55,139 nucleotides of DNA, taken from Perkinsus olseni. Taxonomy: Eukaryota. The DNA is taken from assembly GCA_013115125.1 (NCBI GenBank), contig JABANN010000187.1, positions 1 to 55,139 on the forward strand. Reading direction: 5' to 3'. A program made the position numbers and the translations under genes. Of the stretch, positions 1,814 through 53,300 are shown in pieces. Numbering within the stretch: the first letter of the stretch is position 1; the number at the start of each line of letters is the position of its first letter. Under the pieces are notes generated by a model, which made no database searches, was not told the DNA's origin, and worked only from the letters and a program-made list of their open reading frames with translations.

Positions 1814-2118
1814 TTCACCTCTCACTCAATTTCCCAATAACATTCTCAGAGATACAGACCCAGAGTTACTATGAGCTCAACAGCACTTAGCGGGGAACTA
1901 ACGGCTACACACTAGATGTATTATTGGATATTGGGAGCACTACCGACTTTACAGATTGAAATTGAAAACGCACTTGAATATTGGACTCACTTGGTGTGAG
2001 GAATCGTGCTAATCAGAACAGCAAAATCTTTACAGATTGAATCAACAGAGGACAATGTCTCAGTTGCCTGATCCTGACTCCCAGCTCCAGGGACATGTTC
2101 CGCCGAACCACCAATGAT

Positions 2119-3468
2119 TTACACCATCGGAGTTACAGTCGTCTCCACTGGAGCCTCGGTGGTCTCAGCAGGGGCCTCAGTCGTCTTCATTGGAACCTCA
2201 GTCGTCTCCACTGGAGCCTCGGTGGTCTCAGCAGGGGCCTCAGTCGTCTCAGCAGGGGCCTCAGTCGTCTCAGCAGGGGCCTCAGTCGTCTCCATTGGGG
2301 CCTCGGTAGTCTCAGAAGGGGCCTGAGTCGTCTCCACTGGAGCCTCGGTGGTCTCAGCAGGGGCCTCAGTCGTCTCAGCAGGGGCCTCGGTAGTCACAGC
2401 AGGGGCCTCAGTCGTCTCCACTGGAGCCTCAGTCGTCTCAGCAGCGGCCTCAGTAGTCAAGGCAGGGGCTTCGGTAGTCTCAGTAGGGGCCTCGGCCTCG
2501 GAGCATCCAACAGGTCTACCATCACAGTCGTCGCCAGAAGAATAGCAGTAACCTCCCTCGACAGCTGTTATCCCGAAACATACAGATGGGGCGAGCCAGG
2601 TCTTGCAGTAGGAGCCGGATGCCGAGTCTCGGCATGGGCCATACTGATTGCAGATTTCCATGCATCCTTGCGAAACCTCAACAGGGATGTCATTGGCCTC
2701 AGCCGGAGCCTCAGTCGTCTCAGCCGGAGCCTCAGTCGTCTCAGCCGGAGCCTCAGTCGTCTCAGCCGGAGCCTCAGTCGTCTCAGCCGGAGCCTCAGTA
2801 GTCTCAGCCGGAGCCTCAGTAGTCTCAGCCGGAGCCTCAGTAGTCTCAGCCGGAGCCTCAGTAGTCTCGACAGGAGCCTCAGTAGTCTCGACAGGAGCCT
2901 CAGTAGTCTCGACAGGGGTCTCGGTGGTCTCGGACGCGGCTCCCGTTGTCTCGACGGGCATCATAGTAGTCTGCATGGCCGGAGCCTCAGTAGTGTCCTC
3001 CTCGTCGGGCAGCTCCGTGATCCCGTCAATGCTGTCCCCCTCAGCAACACCCTCATCAGAGCAAACATAGGGTTCACCATCACAGGTTTCGGCTTCGCCA
3101 CCATAGCAGATCGATCCGTCAGATTTCACTTTAATGCCGAAGCAAACCGGCGGGTCGGCCCAGGTCTTACAGTAGGACCCGGACTCCGATGACAAGCAGT
3201 CCTCGATCGAGTTGCAGGCATCAAAGCAATTCGAGGCCGGTCCGTAATGGCATGACACGGGAGTCAGGTAGGTGTCGTCGCAGTCTGAATCCACCCCATA
3301 AAAACACGTGGTCTCGCTCTTGTGGTAGAGGCCATGGCACAGACCACTGCTCTTACAATAGGATACGTCACAACCAGCTGTAGCTTCACAGACTACACCA
3401 CATCTGTCGTGACCAGAGACACCAGTCGCGTAGAGGGCAAGACCGGCAAGGATGAGATAGAGGGACAT
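2119..3468 (-). CDS. Secreted mucin-like protein with 3 SYCK modules and two ETTEAP(A/V) repeat tracts (SYCK member 2)
   Basis: ATG at 3468 (MSLYLILAGLALYATGVSG signal peptide). Modules ...DVSYCKSSGLCHG, ...GSYCKTWADPPVCFG and ...GSYCKTWLAPSVCFG; heptad Thr/Glu/Pro repeats. Confidence 0.88.
   Translation of the reverse strand: MSLYLILAGLALYATGVSGHDRCGVVCEATAGCDVSYCKSSGLCHGLYHKSETTCFYGVDSDCDDTYLTPVSCHYGPASNCFDACNSIEDCLSSESGSYCKTWADPPVCFGIKVKSDGSICYGGEAETCDGEPYVCSDEGVAEGDSIDGITELPDEEDTTEAPAMQTTMMPVETTGAASETTETPVETTEAPVETTEAPVETTEAPAETTEAPAETTEAPAETTEAPAETTEAPAETTEAPAETTEAPAETTEAPAEANDIPVEVSQGCMEICNQYGPCRDSASGSYCKTWLAPSVCFGITAVEGGYCYSSGDDCDGRPVGCSEAEAPTETTEAPALTTEAAAETTEAPVETTEAPAVTTEAPAETTEAPAETTEAPVETTQAPSETTEAPMETTEAPAETTEAPAETTEAPAETTEAPVETTEVPMKTTEAPAETTEAPVETTVTPMV
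2135..2495 (-). repeat. 21-bp coding tandem repeat (xETTEAP), C-terminal tract
   Basis: Repeated ggcctcagtcgtctcagcagg-type units. Confidence 0.9.
2695..2930 (-). repeat. 21-bp coding tandem repeat (AETTEAP/VETTEAP), central tract
   Basis: Repeated agccggagcctcagtcgtctc units. Confidence 0.9.
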
Positions 3469-28457: not shown

Positions 28458-28490
28458 TGGAGGTCGTGGGAATCGAACCGGGGACCTTCG
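28458..28490 (-). other. tRNA 3'-end-like fragment (T-loop plus CCA), no 5' half
   Basis: Minus strand CGAAGGTCCCCGGTTCGATTCCCACGACCTCCA; upstream sequence cannot supply an acceptor or D arm. Confidence 0.45.
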
Positions 28491-28664: not shown

Positions 28665-31600
28665 ATGCCCCGAGCGGAGACCGACTTCGGAGAGGCCTCA
28701 GCCTTCGCCCTCTGGAATCTGATCATTCGACCTCCCAGACGAGAGTACGATGAGAGCTGTCTTGGACCCAAGAAGTTCAAGTTGCATGGTAGTGCTACTG
28801 GAGGGTTAGGGTGAGGGTTGGCTACGGACGATTACCCCGGGGAGAAAAGGCCCGCAGTACTTTCTTGAATTGTTCTTTCTCTTGGCAAACTGGTCGCGGC
28901 CTGGCCTAGGACCGGCCGTTGACGTCATGCGTGGCGATCGTGCTGTGCTTGCATAAAGCGTTGTCATAGTACTTAAGGAAGGGTCAGGGTATGAAGGCCT
29001 TTTCTCGCTCCCACCGCAGCCTTTGCAGGGGTTGGCCGTGAGGGAGTGGCGGTTCCTGTATAAGCCTTTAGTAGGTATCACTTGCCAACGGGAAGACTTC
29101 ACTGTGACGTCCCTGAGGGGCCATGGTCTGAGATGCTCTCTGTTCGTACCGAGAGGGCTGAGGGATGATAATATATCCTACCCTTGTGTGGTCTACATGC
29201 ATGGCAATGCCGGCTGCCGGTTGGAGGCCTTGCCATTGGTAAGTATCCTTACCGGGGATCGAACCGGGGTCTTTAGAGGGACGTCAGGTGGTTATAATAA
29301 TGGGTATTGGTTACACGGAGCATACGTCGCTATACCACACCATCGTCAACTCGTAATCTCTTAGGTACCAATTCTGTTGCCCCTGGGGATCTCCCTGTGC
29401 TGTTTTGACTTTGCTGGCTGTGGCCTTTCTGATGGCGAATACGTTACCCTTGGCCACTTCGAGAGTGAGGATCTCCATGCAGTGGTGGAGCACCTGAGGA
29501 GACTCCCTAGTGTTGGGGTTGTGGCGCTGTGGGGACGGTAATGGCAAAGGGGTCGTACACCAGGGAGTTTAATCTCGATGATCGAGGCTACGGAGTGAAG
29601 AGGGTTGTGGTTCATTTTATTGGTCGGTGAAAGTATCGCTAGCTGTTGACTACCACTCATTCAGTGGAAACCAGTGACTTGTGACTACCACTGTGACCAC
29701 CAGTGACTACCACTCGTTTAGCAACAGCAAAGGCCAGTGGCTTGGTCTCAGTCCCTTGTCAGGTCGATGGGCGCTGTAACAGCATTGTTGTACGCTTCTC
29801 GTCATCACGATATCGCTGGTATGGTGGTGGACTCGCCGTTCGCTAACCTCGCGGAATTGGTACAGGAGTTGGCTGTATCGGAGTATGTCGGCTTGCGGGT
29901 AGTAGAAGTTGTGGAAAGTGTGGTATAGGGTTGTGCTGGGCTCTAAATGTGTGTCGTCTCTTTCAAACTATCATGATAGGACCCTCCTTCCAAGGAAGGC
30001 ACTCTGTGTGAGGGTGCTAGGGGGGTAGCCCATACAAAGCTGTGATGATCTCCTTCCCGCTAGGGAGCTCGGATTCGGTTCGATAGAACGTAGCAAGGGT
30101 TCGGTTTTCTCAAAGTGTCCTTGGTACCCAGAATCGACCAGATTCCGGAAGCTTCGAACTCTCCAAGGATTTTAAGGAAATTAATCTGGACTCTAGTACC
30201 GGTTGTCAGCGCTTGAGTCGTGAAATCGCTGGGCTCCGGGCCACGGAAAGGGGGTCCTCTCAGATACCGTCGTGGTTGGTTAATGGTATCCTATCGATAG
30301 TATGCATGATGGTTAAGCAGAAGGCTGACTTTGATGTACATCAGGTGTCGCCGATCGACTGTGTGGGCCAGGTAAAAATGAGGAATTTCGTGGCGCAGTG
30401 AAGGTACTTGGTTAGGCGTACCTTCCTTGTATCTTCCTGTGTGCGACCTCGGATACGTTTGTGCCACCCCATCATTCTGAGCGCTTGTATGGGGCTTATG
30501 GCGGTGATGATAAAGTTATGATACAGTTAGTGGGGGAACATAATACACCTAGGAGGCTGGAAGATATGAAACATGCTGTGACGTATCTTTGCACGTGAGT
30601 GAAAGATACAGAATAGGTCAAGGTGAGTACCATCGAGAGTAGGTGCTTCCTCACTGGCGTGTCATTTCGGGACTGCGCGGAAACTCTAGGATGGACGGAG
30701 GAGCTAGGCAGATCATCATCGACGTGGATGGTTTCGGAGCAGCCGTTGGACGTCCCCTTCACTAACGCTTGCGAAGCCTGCAAGGCCCTCTGCGAGTGAG
30801 TTACCTTCTCAACGGCAGCTCTATTCTGGGTTGCCTGACACTGACAATCACAGACTTGACCCAAGATGGCTACGGACTGACTTACACCAATCTAGTACTG
30901 ATCGCACAACAATCAGGGTTACCGTAGGGTGCACGCATGCACACTGGGATTGGGCGATAGCTAGCTGAGATATTTCCCTGACACTGCCACTGCCCGACGA
31001 AATAGAAGAATATTCAGTTCGAGTCGGTTACACTGACAAGGGTCGGAGGATGATATTGATGATTGTCGTATCAGATTTGGTGAAGGTTTGGTATCGCGGT
31101 GTCGGCTACTGCAGAGGGACGACTCTTCGTTACCGGCTGCGATATACGCGTCGTATCAGCTGCCTTATGAAAGAGAAGGAGGAGCAGGCTTATGTGTGGT
31201 AAAATGGTATACAATTCTCGCTTCGCTCCGCTCGTTTTCTGTCTGGTCCGCTGGTGGAAAGATACGCCACAATGAGTAATCTTGTGATAATCGCAATTAC
31301 GGTGAATTTGGTTTCGCATCTGCTTCGCTCCGCTAGAATTTCAGGCGCTGGCCAATGGACCGTCGGGAGGGCATAGGACATTATTTTGCCTGATTTTATC
31401 CCGACGGAGCGAAGCAGCTGGCGAGGAATTTCGGCGGTGTCTTTACCTGCTGGAAAACGATACTCGAGGGTCCGATGGTATGAGAGTTGTTGCCAAGGCG
31501 GAGTTGGACAGAGGGAAGGGTCTTGAGGAAGCTTCCACCGAGGTGGCCGGGGGCGATGATGGTTCGATGATCAGATGGGTATCTTAGGTTGAAGCTAGGT

Positions 31601-32206: not shown

Positions 32207-32393
32207 GGATGACGGTGATCTCATTATTAACATGAAGACGTTGTTTTCTATCCCATGGTCGATGAGTGTTTCCATGGTTGGTGCTCGCTTGTGTGGTGGG
32301 GCTGAGAGAGATTGATCTCAGAAAGTGGTTAAAATTGTCGCTGATTGAGTTGTAGTTTTCTTTGTTCCACTTGTTCTTGTTTTTCTCTTGGCA

Positions 32394-33389
32394 ATGAATA
32401 TTCTTGGCTACACTATTGGCGAGGTAGCGATCATCGTGGCCAACTTTACCTGCAATGTCGCATTGGTTAACTCAGTGAAGTTCATCCAATATACGTTACA
32501 TTACCCCTACCCTCTACTCATAAGTGCCATGCACATGATATTCTCATGGCTGGCCTGTGGTGTGTATGTCAAATTTAGTGTACCAGCATTGAGGGAGTAC
32601 ACCTTCAGTCGGTACATGAAGGAAGTATTCCCAGTGGCGGCTATGGCCAGTGCGAGTATTGGTTGTGGTAATATGGCATTGAAGTACATATTCCCATCCT
32701 TCCACGAGTTACTACAACAGACCAGCCCAGCAGCCCAAGTGTTGGTATGTGTATTGATCTATCATCAACACTACAACCTGCCAACCTACCTATCAATGAT
32801 ACCCATCTGTGGCGGCGCTATTATGTGCTCTGGTGGGGAGGTTAACTTCAACATCATCGGCGTTACATTCTCCATCGGTGCGGTACTCACCCGGGCACTC
32901 AAGAATACGATGCAATCAAGACTCATGACCACGTCCTTCACCAACATCGAGCTCCTCTACGTCCTGGCCCCGGCTAACCTATTCTTCTTCCTCACGGGCT
33001 CGTTCCTCGTCGAGGGTCTGTTCGAACCCACCCGACAGCTCATCTCCACGCCCAACGCGTTGGTGGCTGTGGTGTTCTCAGCTCTGTTGGCCTGCACTTA
33101 CAATTTACTGGCATTTAAGATGCTTCAAGTGCTGTCTCCTGTCGGTGCGATGGTTGTGCATACCCTGAAGACCCCGGCTACCTTGATAGTCTCGACTTTG
33201 TTGTTCGGCAACAAGATTGGTGTCTTGCAGGTCCTTGGATTTGTCGTTATCACTGCTGGCGTGTATTACTACAAAAACTACGGTAAAGAAGTAAAACCTG
33301 AGGAGTACCAGAAAATCGATGCCAGCAAGGGTGATCCGGAGGAGTTCGATCTCGAGATGGCACAGCGTTCAGAATCACCTCGGTCGTAG
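32394..33389 (+). CDS. TPT-family (triose-phosphate/nucleotide-sugar, SLC35E-like) transporter, copy 1, intronless
   Basis: Multiple TM segments; K..QYTLHYPYPLLISAMH, GNMALKYIFPSFHELL, GEVNFN..G, LSPVGAMVVHTLK motifs. Confidence 0.9.
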   Translation: MNILGYTIGEVAIIVANFTCNVALVNSVKFIQYTLHYPYPLLISAMHMIFSWLACGVYVKFSVPALREYTFSRYMKEVFPVAAMASASIGCGNMALKYIFPSFHELLQQTSPAAQVLVCVLIYHQHYNLPTYLSMIPICGGAIMCSGGEVNFNIIGVTFSIGAVLTRALKNTMQSRLMTTSFTNIELLYVLAPANLFFFLTGSFLVEGLFEPTRQLISTPNALVAVVFSALLACTYNLLAFKMLQVLSPVGAMVVHTLKTPATLIVSTLLFGNKIGVLQVLGFVVITAGVYYYKNYGKEVKPEEYQKIDASKGDPEEFDLEMAQRSESPRS

Positions 33390-33840: not shown

Positions 33841-35215
33841 TGTGCCGTGAAAATAGATCCCATAATAACGAAGGAAAACAGGAAAAAAAGGTGACCACTA
33901 TGCCAAGGGGCGCGGCAACAGCGAACTGTCATATTATGATAATATATTATTGTTTAACCACAATATGCAACGTGAAAAAAGTGAGGCCACTATGCCGCAT
34001 GGCAACAGCAGATGCTGAGAATCAGGGCTCAATCCTTCGACGATGGTTCGACCGCAGTTTCTAGCCGTCTATCATAGCGGCCTCGTTCTTGCACGTTACG
34101 TGAATTCTCTTCATTGTTACAGCGTGCTCAGCTCGGTAACGCTTTGCAACTCCTTCCCTATTACGTCGTCCTTAGCACCTCCCGTTAATTGGACCGTGGA
34201 TCGGTCATGGTTGAATGATGACGATGAGGACACAGGTTGAATAATAGCCAGTTATCACTGATGACTCGTCAGATGCCAACGGGAGCGTTTTACCGGAGGA
34301 AGTGACGAAAAGATGGTATAAGATCAAAAAACTGTATTCTGGGTGTATGGGCGAGTACTATGCTCTAGTGTATTAATTTGTGCTAATCTTGACTGTGATG
34401 TGTTGTTATTATTTATACGCATGAGAAAATGAAATCAACTAAACTCCATGCGAAGTCTTCACCTTCTCACCCGATTCAAAGTCACTTCGAAAAAGGTTGC
34501 AGGAATATGTTATCAGTGCTATCTGGGTAGCGTAGAGTCGGTCACTCCAGATTTGATCCACCCAAAATCTGTGATATTCTTGTGTACTTCTCCGAGTTAG
34601 GCTGTGCATTTGTCTCTCCGAGCTAGGCGACGTCATTTTAACTTATTACGATATTGTGGAGTATATCTGTGCATCAGATCAGTATCTCTTCCGATATCCC
34701 TGTTACTGGCTGAATAAGGGTTCTGCTGAGTCAAGAGGGAAATAACGACAGCGTATCCTTCAACAGCCCATGGTGATGATTTTAGTAGAAGTCTTAGGAA
34801 AATGCACAACTGTTCTGCACGGTTGTGAAGGGGATCCAGATGAGAATGCTGCATCCAATGGGCAAGAATTATAGTTAGGGGTGTGGCTGGGGATCACCAA
34901 TCCGCTTCGTCCTTGCTATTTGATCGTCCATCCCCTGGATACCCTCCTCGCGATGGGTCACTCAGATCAGACTTTGAAAACATGAGCCTTGAGAAAGGGT
35001 ATCTTGCAACGTGACTAGCCGTTACCGCATTGGCATTGTGCCACGGCGGCTGTCTTCTGATCGGAGTAGGTGGGTTAGTTCTAGACTGCGTGATAGCATG
35101 GCAGCAAGGATTCGCACGCTTTTCAAGATAGACTATGTCATATTGTAGTGGCATATCTTTTCGGTTCGTCATCGTCTCAAATCTTGCACCGTTAAGGATC
35201 TTCCGCGGCTCCCGT
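33841..35215. mobile_element. Probable non-autonomous or decayed DNA transposon between the two transporter genes (same family as 52570-53300)
   Basis: ~150-bp block (34570-34715) highly similar to 52750-52893; recurring GAGGCCRCTATG motif (33983; reverse at 34073 and 53233). Boundaries approximate. Confidence 0.45.
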
Positions 35216-35388
35216 GTATGACAATGAAAGTCACCTTGCGTATCACAGAGAGCGATAAAAATCAAGTATGGTGATAGTGGTCAGAAAAAAATAGAGACAG
35301 TCCTCACCGCTCCGCTGTGAGCATCTTTCAGTCTCTTGTACTGGTCGTGGTGGTGGTGCAGCGCGTCTTTTTAGTTTTTGTGTTGACG

Positions 35389-36423
35389 ATGGCCGTGCTT
35401 GGTTACACTCTGGCGGAGCTTGGCATAATAGCGGCATGCTTCACCTGCAATGTCGCATTGGTTAACTCAGTGAAGTTTATCCAGTATACGTTACATTACC
35501 CCTACCCTCTACTCATAAGTGCCATGCACATGATATTCTCATGGCTGGCCTGTGGTGTGTATGTCAAATTTAGTGTACCAGCATTGAGGGAGTACACCTT
35601 CAGTCGGTACATGAAGGAAGTATTCCCAGTGGCGGCTATGGCCAGTGCGAGTATTGGTTGTGGTAATATGGCATTGAAGTACATATTCCCATCCTTCCAC
35701 GAGTTACTACAACAGACCAGCCCAGCAGCCCAAGTGTTGGTATGTGTATTGATCTATCATCAACACTACAACCTGCCAACCTACCTATCAATGATACCCA
35801 TCTGTGGCGGCGCTATTATGTGCTCTGGTGGGGAGGTTAACTTCAACATCATCGGCGTTACATTCTCCATTGGTGCTGTACTTACCCGGGCACTCAAGAA
35901 TACCATGCAAGCCCATCTGATGACAGTATCCTTCTCTACTATAGAACTACTATTCGCATTAGCCCCTGCCAACTTATTTTTCTTCATGACAGCCTCGGTA
36001 ATATCAGAAGGCCCCATCGAACCAGCTGTGAATCTCGTGAAGGCCCCCACGGTGCTCCTCGCTGTTATTGGATCATCTATACTGGCTTGCTCTTACAATC
36101 TTCTTGCTTTCAAAATGTTACAAGTTTTGTCACCGGTCGGGGCGATGGTGGTGCACACTTTGAAGACGCCTGCCACGTTGCTCGTCTCGTGGATGTTGTT
36201 TGGCAACCAGGTTGGGATTTTACAGATAGTTGGTTTCATTATTATCACAGCGGGAGTGTATTATTATAAGCACTTCGGTAAGGAGATGACAGAAGATAAT
36301 TATCAGTCTGTGGAGGGGGAGGTCAAGCGAGAGTTGGAGGAATTCGATATCGAAGACAACAATTCCGAGGTTGATTCTGTTTCCAGCGACGCGGATGGCG
36401 AAAAGGAGGCGGGCAAGGAGTGA
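35389..36423 (+). CDS. TPT-family transporter, copy 2, intronless
   Basis: Paralog of 32394-33389; ATG at 35389 (MAVLGYTLAELG) aligns with the copy 1 start. Confidence 0.9.
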   Translation: MAVLGYTLAELGIIAACFTCNVALVNSVKFIQYTLHYPYPLLISAMHMIFSWLACGVYVKFSVPALREYTFSRYMKEVFPVAAMASASIGCGNMALKYIFPSFHELLQQTSPAAQVLVCVLIYHQHYNLPTYLSMIPICGGAIMCSGGEVNFNIIGVTFSIGAVLTRALKNTMQAHLMTVSFSTIELLFALAPANLFFFMTASVISEGPIEPAVNLVKAPTVLLAVIGSSILACSYNLLAFKMLQVLSPVGAMVVHTLKTPATLLVSWMLFGNQVGILQIVGFIIITAGVYYYKHFGKEMTEDNYQSVEGEVKRELEEFDIEDNNSEVDSVSSDADGEKEAGKE

Positions 36424-40219: not shown

Positions 40220-43018
40220 ATGAGGTATTGAATCTGGTGGAGGTTGTCGTAGTATCTTAGGTTGATGGTTAAATTTGGCAGAGCCTATAGATCTGTCCGC
40301 AGCCGGCCAGTATCAGTGGGCAGCGTATCAGTGGCGGAGTTATCAGCTCGGGCGAGAGGCATAAACCCAGTGTTGGCCCGGGCGTGGGTGCACGTGTATG
40401 ATACTACTGCAGAAAGCGCTCCGTGGTTGAGCGAGGAGAATGTAATATTCTGGGGCTGCTATCGTCCGTCGCCATCTTGGCTCGAGCCGTTCATTCCAAG
40501 TCTATGCCCAACTCTCGTTCATCAACGTACTCGGTGTCTCTCTCTTTGTTGGAAGATGATTGAAATTTGCAGTTCTGTGCGTTGTCCTCCTCAAAAAAGA
40601 GGGACAGATAGGCCTAACTAGTTGCAAGCCTTTCTTGATGCCCATCAACATACGGAATCCGTAAGTTGATGCAATGATGTCGTATCTTTCATCACATCGC
40701 CCCACTAAGTCATTGCGGACATGCCACGCTCAACTCTCACGAAAAAGAGGTTGGATGATGTCACGTTTCGTCCTCTACTCTTTTTCAATGACAGTGAAGA
40801 TCTTGGCGTGGCCTAGAAGGACGACCCCCTGACGAAAAACTATGGAGGGACGGTTCCTACGAGTCCTTTCACTTGAGAGGGAAGAAGGGTGGGATTCTCC
40901 ATGCGGACGATTTGGACGTGTGGTATAAAATGGCTGGTGGTTTCAATGAATGCTATCCAGAATGCCGCGCAAGGATGCTGCCCTTCGCAGGCTGTTCTCG
41001 AGTGACTTCGAAGGGGTGCTGCAAGCATCCTGGTGTACAGTGCTCTTGGTCGCAATAAGTTTGGTATATGAGTATATTCTAACCCACTTCTAACCTATCT
41101 CACGTCATTGCCAATATCTGAGCTTGGCAATCACGTCGTACTACTGGGCGACAACTACGGAGTGGCCTACGAATGGAATGGGTATATAGCAGTTTGAGCA
41201 TCGATACTAGGATAACCTTGCAGAGTTTCTGGCTCACTCTGCAAGAGTGTTTTACGAAGTACGGCTTCACGGAATGAGTAGAGGAAGGCTTTATGGGGTC
41301 AACCTCATTTTGAAGCCTTCGTATTGGAGCCCTTCAAGCCCTTCAAGCCCTTCAAGGCTGTCAAGGGTAACTGCTTCGGTCTTGAGCGAAGGGATGGCTG
41401 GCGAAAACGACCGTAGAATTTCCGGCCGCATGAGTTGGCGCTGGTCTATCTTGGTCGTTGAAGGCTCACATTGTTTGAAACAATGCTTCATGCCTTGTTT
41501 CGATGTTCCGCGTCCATGGCATGTTCTATTATTTGGAAACAATCTGTCTCCGATCATGCCGAGGGGTACCTCTGCAAACACGAAGATGTTTATTGTCTGT
41601 GACTAGGGGAAGTTGCCTCTTCTGCCGTCACTTGCTGGTTGGTGTAGGCCCGCCATTAACGAGGCTCCGTGGTTGGTTGAGGGACGTGCCGTGTGCTAAT
41701 TTATGCTACCGGTCCAGCGTCAACCGGTTTTCTGTATTTAGATGATATACGCACGAGAGCTGTTCTCCAAGAAGGTGGTGGGGTACCCTTTGATTGGCCT
41801 GTGGAATGTTGAACGGAAGTCGGCCAACAACGCCCACCGGACTCCGGCGGTGGTAGGTCTGCCTGAGCGTTGGGTTCAGCGAGGGACAAATCCTCAGGTC
41901 ATTTGCGGTCGGTCGAATGTTGGTAAATCTACTCTGATTAATGAGCTGCTCTACGGCCGACAATTCGACCAGGTCAAGCATCGCGCGAGGTTGTCCTCGC
42001 ACAACATAACTCACGCACCAGTGTCGAACAAGGCTGGGCGGACCAGGCATATTTTCCGGTTCGACCTTGGTGACCGGTTAAGGCTTGTGGATCTGCCTGG
42101 TAGGGTCGGGCGTCTAATTTGTGTTTAGCTGTAATTCTCAGGTTACGGTTTTGCAGAGGTTGAAGGAAGCGTCCGAGATGAATGGGCTACGCTGATAGAA
42201 AGATATCTTCAAGTGGCCGGGGAGGAGTCGAGTCAGCTGCAGCGTGCGATCAGTCTGGTAGTAGTTTCACGCCATTATCATTGCTGAACGTACTTTTACA
42301 TGGATCGTATCTACCGGGTGTCCTCCCGCGGACGGGACGGGCGGGACACCCTGTTGTCGTCGTTATGTTTATCTTCGTAGGGGTTGCCGATTAGTATTGG
42401 AAACACAATTTGGACTGAGGCGGCTTCGACGGGCTGAGTGTGCTCCCACAGGTTGATGCGCGGAGGGGCGTCAAGGGACTGGATCGAGCCCTCTGGGACA
42501 TGCTACAGGAGAAGCGGATACCCTTTCAAGTCACTAGCGACTGTCCAACCCCGTGGTGATCTATGCCGATCAGGTTGTTCTGACTAAGGTTGACCTCGTC
42601 CATGACGTCTACGAGCTGCACGACACGATGGAGCACATCATCGCCATACTTCAAGTAGGGTAGCGTCTGTTGGAATAACGCTACCGCCAAAGACGAAGGG
42701 AGAGGGTCTTACTATCTGTATACTAGCAGCTGCAAGAACAGCAGAAATGTGAATGTTAGAATGTGTAGCTACTGCAACAATGATGCGCGTGCCACAACAA
42801 TGAATGCACAGCATGTAGTAGATCTCATAGCATCGTCCTCATGTGGAGTCTCAATGTTCCGTGTGCAGGAGTATGATAGAGAGGTCCTCTGGCCGTACAT
42901 TCACGCAGTTTCCAGCCTCCACAAGCACGGGATTAACGACCTCCTGCTCAGTCTCTCTGCCGTCGCTAGAGACTTCGAGATGCTTGGTCAGGCGCGTAGA
43001 GTGTCGGGTGGGGGTTAG
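40220..43018 (+). CDS. engB: EngB/YihA (YsxC)-family ribosome-biogenesis GTPase, probably organelle-targeted; 5' exons tentative
   Basis: G1 [23 protein letters not shown]3 LVDLPG/YGFA, VDARRG, G4 [17 protein letters not shown]. Arg/Ser-rich N-terminus resembles a transit peptide. Confidence 0.85.
40465..40486 (+). other. Relict spliced-leader (SL) sequence inside an intron
   Basis: TCCGTCGCCATCTTGGCTCGAG: 2 mismatches to DCCGTAGCCATYTTGGCTCAAG. Lies in predicted intron 40384-40621; followed by ccgttc... and an ATG at 40504. Confidence 0.75.
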
Positions 43019-43422: not shown

Positions 43423-46950
<3,528 letters not shown>

Positions 46951-47181: not shown

Positions 47182-48231
47182 ATGCTTCATCACCTGCTAG
47201 CCAATTTGTTCGTGCTGTGCACCACCGTGGCCGCCTTCGGCACCAGTATTGATGAGACTCCTACCTCTGCGAATCACTGTGAGGAAGCCTGCTCTCAAAC
47301 GGTCGGTTGCGAACGATCCTATTGTAAGGCTAATGGTGTGTGCTTCGGCCTGTATCACAAGGGTGACTCGAAGTGCTACCAGCCTGGGGCCTCCGATGGT
47401 TATTGTGACGATGCTACCTTGGAGCCTGTCAGATGTGTTGATTATCCTCAAACCACCTGCAGTGAAGTTTGTAATTCTGTGGACGGCTGCAAGAGCTCTG
47501 TTATGGGCACATACTGCAAGGACTGGCTTGAAAGTCCGGTATGTTTCGGTATCATCACGAAAGGCGATGGTACGCTGTGCTTTGCGCCGACTGATAACGA
47601 GTGTGAAGGAGATTCCTACCCTTGTGAAATCTTCGGCACCACTGAGGCTCCCGTAGACACCACCGAGGCTCCTGTCGACACCACTGAGGCTCCAGTCGAC
47701 ACCACTGAGGCTCCTGTAGAGACCACTGAGGCTCCTGTAGAGACCACTGAGGCTCCTGTAGAGACTACAGACGCTCCTGTAGAGACTACTGAGGCTCCTG
47801 TCGAGACTACTGAGGCTCCTGTCGACACCACTGAGGCTCCTGTCGACACCACTGAGGCTCCTGTAGAGACTACTGAGGCTCCAGTCGACACCACTGAGGC
47901 TCCTGTCGACACTACTGAACCCTCAATCGACACCGCCGATCCAGCCCAGCCTAGTGTTGATGACGTGGAAGGGGATTGGTGTGGTGATACTCCTCTTGGT
48001 GCTATGAGAGTAACTCTCAGAGAAGATGGAACCGCGTCTATTTTCATATCGGGTCAGCCGTTCACCGCTACCTACTATCTCGATGGCTATGATATCATCA
48101 TTCAGAATCCTGATGAATCACTACAGAGCCTCCTCACCGCGCTTGACACCAGTCTAGTCACGAGATACACTCCGGAGGGCATCTCCGTTGAACTTGTTAA
48201 TCTTTTCTCCACCACATTGTCTAATTGCTAA
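47182..48231 (+). CDS. Secreted protein with 2 SYCK modules, TTEAPV(D/E) repeats and a C-terminal 'GxWCG' domain (SYCK member 3)
   Basis: ATG 47182 with signal peptide; ERSYCKANGVCFGLYHKG and GTYCKDWLESPVCFG modules; 21-bp repeats; C-terminal PSVDDVEGDWCGDTP domain. Confidence 0.88.
   Translation: MLHHLLANLFVLCTTVAAFGTSIDETPTSANHCEEACSQTVGCERSYCKANGVCFGLYHKGDSKCYQPGASDGYCDDATLEPVRCVDYPQTTCSEVCNSVDGCKSSVMGTYCKDWLESPVCFGIITKGDGTLCFAPTDNECEGDSYPCEIFGTTEAPVDTTEAPVDTTEAPVDTTEAPVETTEAPVETTEAPVETTDAPVETTEAPVETTEAPVDTTEAPVDTTEAPVETTEAPVDTTEAPVDTTEPSIDTADPAQPSVDDVEGDWCGDTPLGAMRVTLREDGTASIFISGQPFTATYYLDGYDIIIQNPDESLQSLLTALDTSLVTRYTPEGISVELVNLFSTTLSNC
47638..47920 (+). repeat. 21-bp coding tandem repeat (TTEAPVD/E), about 13 units
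   Basis: accactgaggctcctgtagag / ...gtcgac units. Confidence 0.9.
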
Positions 48232-52569: not shown

Positions 52570-53300
52570 CGGGGAGGAAGCAACACTTGCACCGTACTTT
52601 CGGCCACCTATATTTTCCGAACCAAGGTGACAAGGCTGTGGTCATCATGCATGACTCTCTGTGGCATACCTACACTAGAGATGCGGTTGGCAAATAGGGT
52701 ATGATTTGTACGATGTAGTGAACTCCCTCCGTCATGGGTGCCGTAATTTGTGATACTCTTGTGTGATTCTGCGAGCTAGGCTGTGCATTTGTCCCTCCTC
52801 GCTAGGCGACGTTATTTTAACTTATTACGATATTGTGGTGCATATTTGAGCATCAGATCAGTGTCTCTTCCGATATCCCTGTTACTGGCTGAAGCATGGT
52901 TTAAAACCATTAACAAAACCATTGGTTTTGTTAAGTCAAGAGGGAAATAACAACACGAGCGTATTTGAGCACTTAAACGAAATAACTTGTGCGGCAATAT
53001 GAACGTCGGCATTGTGCCCACCTGCGTTTTGGACCCGCGAATCTTACTACCGGATGGCAACCGGCAGCTGAGCTAGGCTGGTAGTCTGTAACGGAAATTG
53101 TAACACGCAAGAAAGGGGAGCCACTGTGCTGTCACGTGGCGCGAGAGCGGTATGCATGCTGATTGCATGATGCTATTGATGCATTGAGCCAGCATGTGAG
53201 TGCTTCCTCGAGCCCCAGCCGCTGCTGCTGTGGCATAGCGGCCTCATTTTCGTTGCATGATGTATTCTCTTCGTTATCACAGCCTGTGTCCGCGGCATCG
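52570..53300. mobile_element. Second copy or relative of the 33841-35215 dispersed element (boundaries approximate)
   Basis: Shared block ttttaacttattacgatattgtgg...gcatcagatcagt.tctcttccgatatccctgttactggctgaa and a shared terminal-type motif in inverted orientation. Confidence 0.45.

What the first reader, a model, noticed from the sequence alone, without database searches (positions are those of the whole stretch)
30855..30876. Near-perfect spliced-leader 22-mer embedded antisense in an intron
Seen: the minus strand reads TCCGTAGCCATCTTGGGTCAAG inside predicted intron 30796-31074 of the hydrolase gene. Known: perkinsids and dinoflagellates trans-splice a DCCGTAGCCATYTTGGCTCAAG-type leader, and relict SLs in dinoflagellate genes mark re-integrated mRNAs. 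Inference: no GT donor follows, so this is not an SL RNA gene but probably the 5' end of a reverse-transcribed mRNA inserted into an intron. A chance match of this quality in 55 kb is very unlikely.
Basis: partly seen in the sequence, partly recalled or inferred. Interest (0 to 1): 0.75.

Follow-up and report, generated by a model that had tools for sequence, protein, structure and literature searches.

The report
Solo LTR carrying host spliced leader
The leader-like 22 bases are part of a decayed end-repeat of a jumping gene in a shellfish parasite; several distantly related jumping-gene families there carry the same host mRNA leader inside their end-repeats, possibly because they need it to copy themselves.

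Summary
The 22-mer is real (20 of 22 bases match the genome's own SL exon; none expected by chance). It is not the 5' end of a retroposed host mRNA. It lies inside a 177-bp decayed solo LTR (30807-30983, minus strand) of a 211-bp family with 36 matches in the genome, 3-bp target duplications, a tRNA-Ser primer site, a polypurine tract and a Gypsy-type integrase. Of 51 SL matches genome-wide, 40 lie in LTRs of nine families, 5 in SL RNA genes. SL-bearing families are not one clade and are interleaved with SL-less ones. Published P. marinus oligos indicate that a homologous repeat there carries that species' other, 21-nt leader, which this assembly lacks. Most likely the SL entered LTRs repeatedly by reverse transcription of trans-spliced element RNA and is re-copied from the host leader, serving as the R region; that last step is inferred, not shown. 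This copy is probably an inert passenger. The intron is frame-consistent but was not seen spliced. The scan already noted SL-bearing LTRs on other DNA of this genome.

The parts
30807..30983 (-). Decayed solo LTR of 'family A' (177 bp; intact copies 211 bp, TGTTA...TAATA)
   Evidence: Global alignment to 5 complete copies: 149-150 identical of 176-177 aligned pairs (84-85%), with several short deletions; those copies are 92-99.5% identical to each other (alignments). Flanks CAG / AGG: no intact target duplication.
30877..30983 (-). U3-like part of the LTR (upstream of the SL)
   Evidence: Homologous to the 124 nt upstream of the SL in other copies. The label U3 is inferred from position.
30855..30876 (-). 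Copy of the host spliced leader (20 of 22 bases; T at position 1, substitution at 30860); putative R region
   Evidence: Young copies match positions 2-22 exactly. The R label is inference.
30807..30854 (-). U5-like part of the LTR; in a 5' LTR copy it is followed directly by the primer binding site and an ATG-initiated frame
30796..31074 (+). Predicted 279-nt host intron that holds the LTR in antisense
   Evidence: GT..AG, frame-consistent; not seen spliced in 4 runs of contigs.
30643..30795 (+). Predicted host exon before the intron
   Evidence: Open frame read; no Pfam hit.
31075..31276 (+). Predicted host exon after the intron (frame open to 31276; true end unknown)
   Evidence: no Pfam hit.
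29074..30592 (+). Alpha/beta-hydrolase-like exons of the host gene
   Evidence: 3 of 6 exon pieces give weak Pfam hits below cut-off (Hydrolase_4 E 0.0008 and 0.039; FSH1 E 0.021); introns 29239-29364 and 29899-30263 seen spliced in run X1.

Best explanation
SHOWN: the SL copy is an internal part of an old solo LTR of a Ty3/Gypsy-order retrotransposon, left antisense in a predicted intron. Nine LTR families of this genome carry the SL about 27-90 nt before the LTR's 3' end; most other families do not. INFERRED (about 0.8): the SL entered the LTR when an element RNA that had been trans-spliced was reverse-transcribed; minus-strand strong-stop DNA then ends in the leader, and its transfer to the RNA's 3' end placed the leader between U3 and U5. 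INFERRED (about 0.5): the arrangement then keeps itself up. The SL copy ends in AG and can serve as the trans-splice acceptor, the mature RNA starts with a true host leader, and the SL copy in the 3' LTR is the only sequence shared by both RNA ends, so it acts as the R region and is re-copied from the host leader in each cycle. The window's own copy has no internal region, is about 15% diverged and is most likely an inert passenger.
For: LTR identity. 5 of 6 solo family-A copies with both ends have a perfect 3-bp duplication, 0 of 6 a 4-bp one; 5 of 7 left half-copies at contig ends pair with a right half by the 3-mer (p 0.0002). One copy is followed by 14 nt complementary to tRNA-Ser+CCA; another follows an integrase frame (Integrase_H2C2 E 2e-5, rve E 3e-4, both under cut-off) and a purine tract. 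A full element of family C has two SL-bearing LTRs 98.4% alike, RT, integrase and a 5-bp duplication. SL positions 2/3-22 are the same in families whose flanks mostly do not align (5 of 36 family pairs with a short U3 or U5 similarity at p<0.02). SL-bearing families are not one clade: RT p-AU 1e-61 (4 against 34 rows), integrase p-AU 0.003 (4 against 40). Published P. marinus oligos from the 21-nt-leader class match family E's U5 at 18 of 21 (table seen), while family E here has the 22-nt leader and the assembly has 0 matches to the 21-nt one. Position 1, next to the cap, varies (T, G, A, C) between families.
Against: No raw reads were available (24 of 24 runs were contigs), so neither start, end nor trans-splicing of element RNA was seen. 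SL-less LTRs are the majority: 0 of 18 repeats beside other integrase genes matched the SL above shuffles (best 13 of 22, lowest p 0.07), so the SL is not needed by LTR elements here in general. In dinoflagellates re-trans-splicing uses the first AG of the relic and leaves a 15-nt remnant (PMC12014239, passages); the model needs the last AG, and the absence of SL+remnant tandems in 190 loci fits it but equally fits no trans-splicing at all. The two leaders differ by one base, and the P. marinus link rests on two oligos. C. elegans Cer1 keeps its genomic RNA un-trans-spliced (PMC3315495, passages). Family A's RT was not found; its 5' and 3' parts lie on different contigs.
Confidence: 0.7

Rival explanations
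1. Neutral fossil: each family captured the SL once by a reverse-transcription accident and has carried it passively since.
For: Same origin evidence as the best explanation; SL-less families thrive; old solo copies lose the SL freely (up to 6 mismatches).
Against: Needs many separate recent captures to keep the SL exact in nine families; family F's SL-U5 junction is shared with P. marinus oligos, which suggests age without decay.
Confidence: 0.3
2. Cis-encoded mimic: transcription starts at the SL copy, so element RNA looks like a finished host mRNA without trans-splicing.
For: The SL sits a 5'-UTR's length ahead of the first ATG in 5' LTR copies of families A, B, E and G.
Against: Position 1 is not kept as A. 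Contigs joining U3 to the SL occur in 4 of 4 runs laid, and at high depth in X1, though 3'-LTR read-through or DNA could also give them.
Confidence: 0.15
3. One reading: the 5' end of a retroposed host mRNA inserted in an intron.
For: SL without GT donor, followed by UTR-like sequence. A few single-copy SL sites may be of this kind (4 of 51).
Against: Homology extends upstream of the SL; multi-copy; LTR hallmarks.
Confidence: 0.02
4. A small RNA on the intron's sense strand (anti-SL guide followed by CTGA, as in a box C/D guide), an SL RNA gene, or an assembly chimera.
For: The plus strand reads anti-SL then CTGA.
Against: The CTGA is family A's U3 end, present in all copies wherever they lie; no box C motif between 30796 and 30855 (read); 0 Rfam hits at gathering score; no GT donor; a 1361-nt contig of run X1 spans the site with 0 differences.
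Confidence: 0.02

Closest known systems
Solo LTRs of Ty3/Gypsy-order LTR retrotransposons
   Same: TG start, short imperfect inverted ends, target duplication, tRNA primer site, polypurine tract, rve/H2C2 integrase at the end of pol.
   Different: Host SL inside the LTR; family A ends in TA, not CA; 3-bp duplications in families A, B, D, E, where 4-6 bp is the textbook range (recalled).
Intron-less 'SL RNA-like' genomic sequences of Perkinsus marinus (Zhang et al. 2011, PMC3101222; passages seen; its one held supplement listed, not read)
   Same: Over 100 genomic SL copies without intron, mostly starting with T; their oligos match families E and F here.
   Different: The passages seen do not recognise them as LTRs ('transpos' occurs 0 times in the main text) and report tandem arrays and no RACE products; here they are dispersed LTRs.
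Relic spliced leaders of dinoflagellate retrogenes (PMC12014239, PMC3942190; passages)
   Same: DNA copy of the SL, most likely made by reverse transcription of a trans-spliced RNA.
   Different: Those tag host retrogenes and are cut to 15 nt in transcripts; this one is nearly full length, lies inside a mobile element's LTR and is copied with it.
Partial leaders beside LTR and LINE elements in parasitic flatworms (PMC12582326; one passage)
   Same: 597 loci of partial SL tied to mobile elements, suggested to come from trans-spliced retrotransposon RNA.
   Different: Noted as discarded loci; the passage gives no position within the LTR, no family analysis and no role.
C. elegans Cer1 (PMC3315495; passages) and SL-targeting non-LTR elements SLACS/CRE/NeSL (recalled)
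   Same: Retroelements that must deal with, or exploit, a host's SL system.
   Different: Cer1's 8-kb genomic RNA avoids trans-splicing; SLACS-type elements insert into SL RNA genes. Here the SL is part of the element.

Membership tests
Solo LTR of an LTR retrotransposon | Homology over its whole length to LTRs attached to internal sequence | tested here: met
   84-85% of aligned pairs to copies on C2932 (3' LTR) and C3234 (5' LTR)
Solo LTR of an LTR retrotransposon | Target site duplication | tested here: inconclusive
   Not intact at the window copy (CAG/AGG); perfect 3 bp in 5 of 6 other solo copies
Solo LTR of an LTR retrotransposon | TG...CA termini | tested here: not met
   Family A is TG...TA, window copy TG...GA; families B-E and H end in CA
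Ty3/Gypsy-order retrotransposon (family A) | tRNA primer binding site after the 5' LTR | tested here: met
   14 nt complementary to tRNA-Ser 3' end plus CCA
Ty3/Gypsy-order retrotransposon (family A) | Polypurine tract before the 3' LTR, integrase as last pol domain | tested here: met
   C2932: 474-aa frame with H2C2 and rve hits (under Pfam cut-off) running into GGCAGGGGGGCG then the LTR
Ty3/Gypsy-order retrotransposon (family A) | One intact element with two LTRs, gag, protease, RT, RNase H, integrase in order | tested here: inconclusive
   Not assembled for family A; met for family C on C10; family A's integrase groups with families E and F (SH-aLRT 92)
SL RNA gene | SL exon followed by GT donor and conserved intron | tested here: not met
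   Window SL followed by TCTG; the 5 true genes have GTAAAT
Retroposed host mRNA with relic SL | SL at the 5' edge of the insert, followed by a host gene's UTR and coding sequence | tested here: not met
   About 107 nt of repeat upstream of the SL; downstream part is the LTR's end
R region of an LTR | Present at both ends of the element's genomic RNA | not testable with these tools
   Only contigs were offered
Box C/D guide RNA | Box C and box D around an antisense guide | tested here: not met
   CTGA present, no box C in the intron part upstream; 0 Rfam hits

The most novel reading that the evidence does not exclude
Several distantly related Perkinsus LTR retrotransposon lineages have separately come to use the host's spliced leader as their R region: their RNA is trans-spliced at the LTR's own SL copy, and first-strand transfer runs on a leader supplied by the host, so part of the element's terminal repeat is re-templated from a host RNA in every cycle.
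Probability: 0.4. Interest if true: 0.8.

Novelty: new variant of a known kind. Interest (0 to 1): 0.55.

Why it matters
It offers an identity for the orphan SL-like genomic copies reported in P. marinus in 2011, and warns that genomic SL hits in Perkinsus mostly mark LTRs (40 of 51 here), not retrogenes or SL RNA genes. It bears on a general question: how an LTR element keeps terminal redundancy in a host that replaces the 5' ends of its mRNAs. If SL serves as R, the element's enzymes could also engage SL-capped host mRNAs, a possible route to the retrogenes common in the sister dinoflagellates (speculation). The window's own copy matters little.

Tried and rejected
Rfam (0 hits) and ARAGORN (0 genes) on the window gave nothing. 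Two family-A-like repeats 6.4 kb apart on C2662 with a decayed SL looked like a full element copying without a good SL; they are a segmental duplication of an old solo LTR with no pol between, so they test nothing. The DNA after family A's 5' LTR on C3234 is interrupted after 186 nt by another repeat with inverted ends; the 62-aa start matched no other frame. No second allele or empty site was found: the host exon's other hits were 39% and 33% identical. Read depth in X1 is far higher on family-A LTR contigs (20,222 at the U3-SL junction) than on the host gene (about 5-34), but contig depth cannot rank expression, X1's RNA status is a guess and it also holds unspliced sequence: a weak hint only. 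The 23 small-share runs, of which 3 were laid, are no evidence of habitat. The break of an X1 contig at the SL's last base can come from variation between copies, so I did not read it as an RNA end. In the trees L167 was first labelled SL-less; its pol runs through a purine tract into a family-H LTR, but its 5' end has a different LTR, so its status is unsure; counts are given both ways. The look-up of earlier findings by the family-A LTR sequence found nothing.

Full report
OBSERVATION. The window holds 2 matches to the leader pattern at up to 3 mismatches, against 0 in each of 100 shuffles. The genome's SL RNA genes carry a 22-nt exon identical to PmaSL1 of Perkinsus marinus (PMC3101222, passages), so the host is very likely a Perkinsus; the window copy differs at positions 1 and 17. 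The site is not an assembly join: a 1361-nt contig of run X1 spans 30263-31594 with 0 differences (X1 may be the same isolate). X1 shows two other introns of the gene spliced but not 30796-31074, which stays a frame-consistent prediction. The hydrolase label rests on weak Pfam hits in 3 of 6 exon pieces.

WHAT IT IS. The region around the SL has 14 other matches in the genome. The intact unit is 211 bp, TGTTA...TAATA, with SL positions 2-22 at 125-145; a search with it gives 36 matches at 32 places by my count, many cut by contig ends, so a lower bound. The window copy, 30807-30983, aligns end to end at 84-85% of aligned pairs with short deletions; five intact copies are 92-99.5% alike. Of 8 copies in which both ends were found, two are attached to internal sequence; of the other six, five have a perfect 3-bp duplication, and 5 of 7 left halves at contig ends pair with a right half (p 0.0002). 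The copy on C3234 is followed by 14 nt complementary to tRNA-Ser plus CCA (37 genomic matches of the tRNA-end pattern; 6 of 6 loci checked are tRNA-Ser). The copy on C2932 follows a 474-aa frame with integrase hits and a purine tract. This is a solo LTR of a Gypsy-order element; its RT was not recovered.

THE WIDER PATTERN. A genome scan found 51 SL matches at up to 1 mismatch. I read the context of all 51 and sorted them by hand: 40 in nine families with LTR hallmarks (A 8, B 6, C 8, D 3, E 3, F 6, G 2, H 3, J 1), 2 in a repeat not confirmed as an LTR, 5 SL RNA genes, 4 single sites. Target duplications are 3 bp in B (3 of 3), D (3 of 3) and E (1 of 1 solo copy), 4 bp in F (2 of 4 copies; the other two look element-attached), 5 bp in C (3 of 4) and H (2 of 3). 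Family C has a full element with two SL-bearing LTRs, RT and integrase. The genome has 99 integrase matches; I fetched 37 of them besides a few seen earlier, and of 18 terminal repeats tested (about ten seen whole) none matched the SL above shuffles. In RT and integrase trees the SL-bearing families are not one clade (p-AU 1e-61 and 0.003). The label needs 4 changes (at least 3 forced in RT, 2 in integrase) with L167 counted SL-less, and 5 (at least 4 and 3) with it counted as family H; 19 RT and 24 integrase rows of unknown status were not counted. Branches are long, and gains cannot be told from losses without a root. Family A groups with E, F and two SL-less elements.

LINK TO P. MARINUS. 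Zhang et al. report over 100 intron-less genomic SL copies, mostly starting with T, with no RACE product. Of two oligos from their table tested against 15 SL-downstream sequences, the one from the 21-nt-leader class matches family E at 18 of 21 and F at 16 of 18; the one from the second long class matches F only (each p 0.002). Family E here has the 22-nt leader, and the assembly has no match to the 21-nt leader at up to 1 mismatch. Homologous repeats thus seem to carry the leader variant their host has, which fits repeated copying from host-capped RNA better than one frozen capture. The basis is thin: two oligos and a one-base difference.

HOW IT MOST LIKELY WORKS. From established LTR biology: minus-strand DNA primed at the tRNA site copies U5 and the RNA's 5' end, then jumps to the 3' end by the repeated R sequence. 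If the host trans-splices the element's RNA, the 5' end becomes SL and the match to the 3' end is lost. A rare jump fixes SL between U3 and U5. From then on the SL copy's last AG can be the acceptor, and the copy in the 3' LTR gives 20-21 nt of perfect match for the jump, refreshed from the host leader each cycle. This fits the fixed position, the exact SL amid mostly unalignable flanks, the free first base and the scattered occurrence on the tree. It is not shown: all 24 runs offered were contigs. SL-less families must avoid trans-splicing or solve it otherwise, as Cer1 does in C. elegans. A neutral fossil (0.3) or a cis-encoded mimic (0.15) remain open. The window copy lost its internal region, is antisense to the gene, and has a substitution in the SL; I expect no function.

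NOVELTY. Eight paper searches (listings and abstract starts seen, up to 20 rows each) showed no paper describing an SL inside an LTR or in Perkinsus retrotransposons; the library lacks most subscription papers, and unseen supplements of the Perkinsus and flatworm papers may bear on this. Passages read: PMC3101222, PMC12582326 (597 partial leaders tied to LTR and LINE elements), PMC9399869 (0 occurrences of 'transpos' or 'retro'), PMC3942190, PMC12220107 (about 30% of Hydra TE reads carry SL), PMC4558846, PMC12014239, PMC3315495, PMC2868825 (numerous genomic SL copies, unpublished). The search for 3-bp duplications with LTR elements gave 4 listings, none evidently on this (listing only). This scan had already noted SL-bearing LTRs on other pieces of the same genome (AI notes, not support). 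Added here: this family, the 51-site census, the tree test, the cross-species leader switch and the 3-bp duplications.

VERDICT. Observation confirmed; interpretation partly supported. New variant of a known kind. The copy is ordinary debris; the system it belongs to is surprising and testable. Interest 0.55.

Noticed in passing
window 40466-40486 (+): Second SL-like site, 2 mismatches, preceded by T; the surrounding 371 bases are single-copy in the genome. An older LTR relic or a true retro-mRNA relic.
   Followed up: partly
families A, B, D, E (e.g. L005, L017, L033, L042): 3-bp target duplications on LTR retrotransposons, shorter than the 4-6 bp I recall as usual; A and E group together in the integrase tree.
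   Followed up: partly
L016:1501 (C223), L038 (C2818), L041 (C2944), L110:1062 (C239): Four single SL sites. L016 is followed by CCATCT, the start of a second relic; L038 is preceded by a branch-point-like TACTAA, as family C is.
   Followed up: no
L047 about 705-1390 (C3234): A repeat with inverted ends sits 186 nt inside family A's internal region; 136 matches in the genome.
   Followed up: no
L167 (C32): Mixed structure: one LTR type at the 5' end, pol running into a family-H LTR, then a second copy of the first type; that first type is also the flank of a family-E insertion.
   Followed up: partly
window 2017-3056 and 47596-47981: Two arrays of 21-nt units, related in inverted orientation at 72-80%.
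   Followed up: no
window 32374-32673 and 35369-35668; 34566-34750 and 52745-52955: Direct repeat pairs at about 90%: tandem duplication or another element.
   Followed up: no
window 28458-28488, 29254-29274, 46707-46737: tRNA-end-like fragments on the minus strand; ARAGORN calls no tRNA in the window.
   Followed up: no
L009:1299-1382 (C2802): A tRNA-Ser gene lies about 120 nt from a decayed family-A-like LTR.
   Followed up: no
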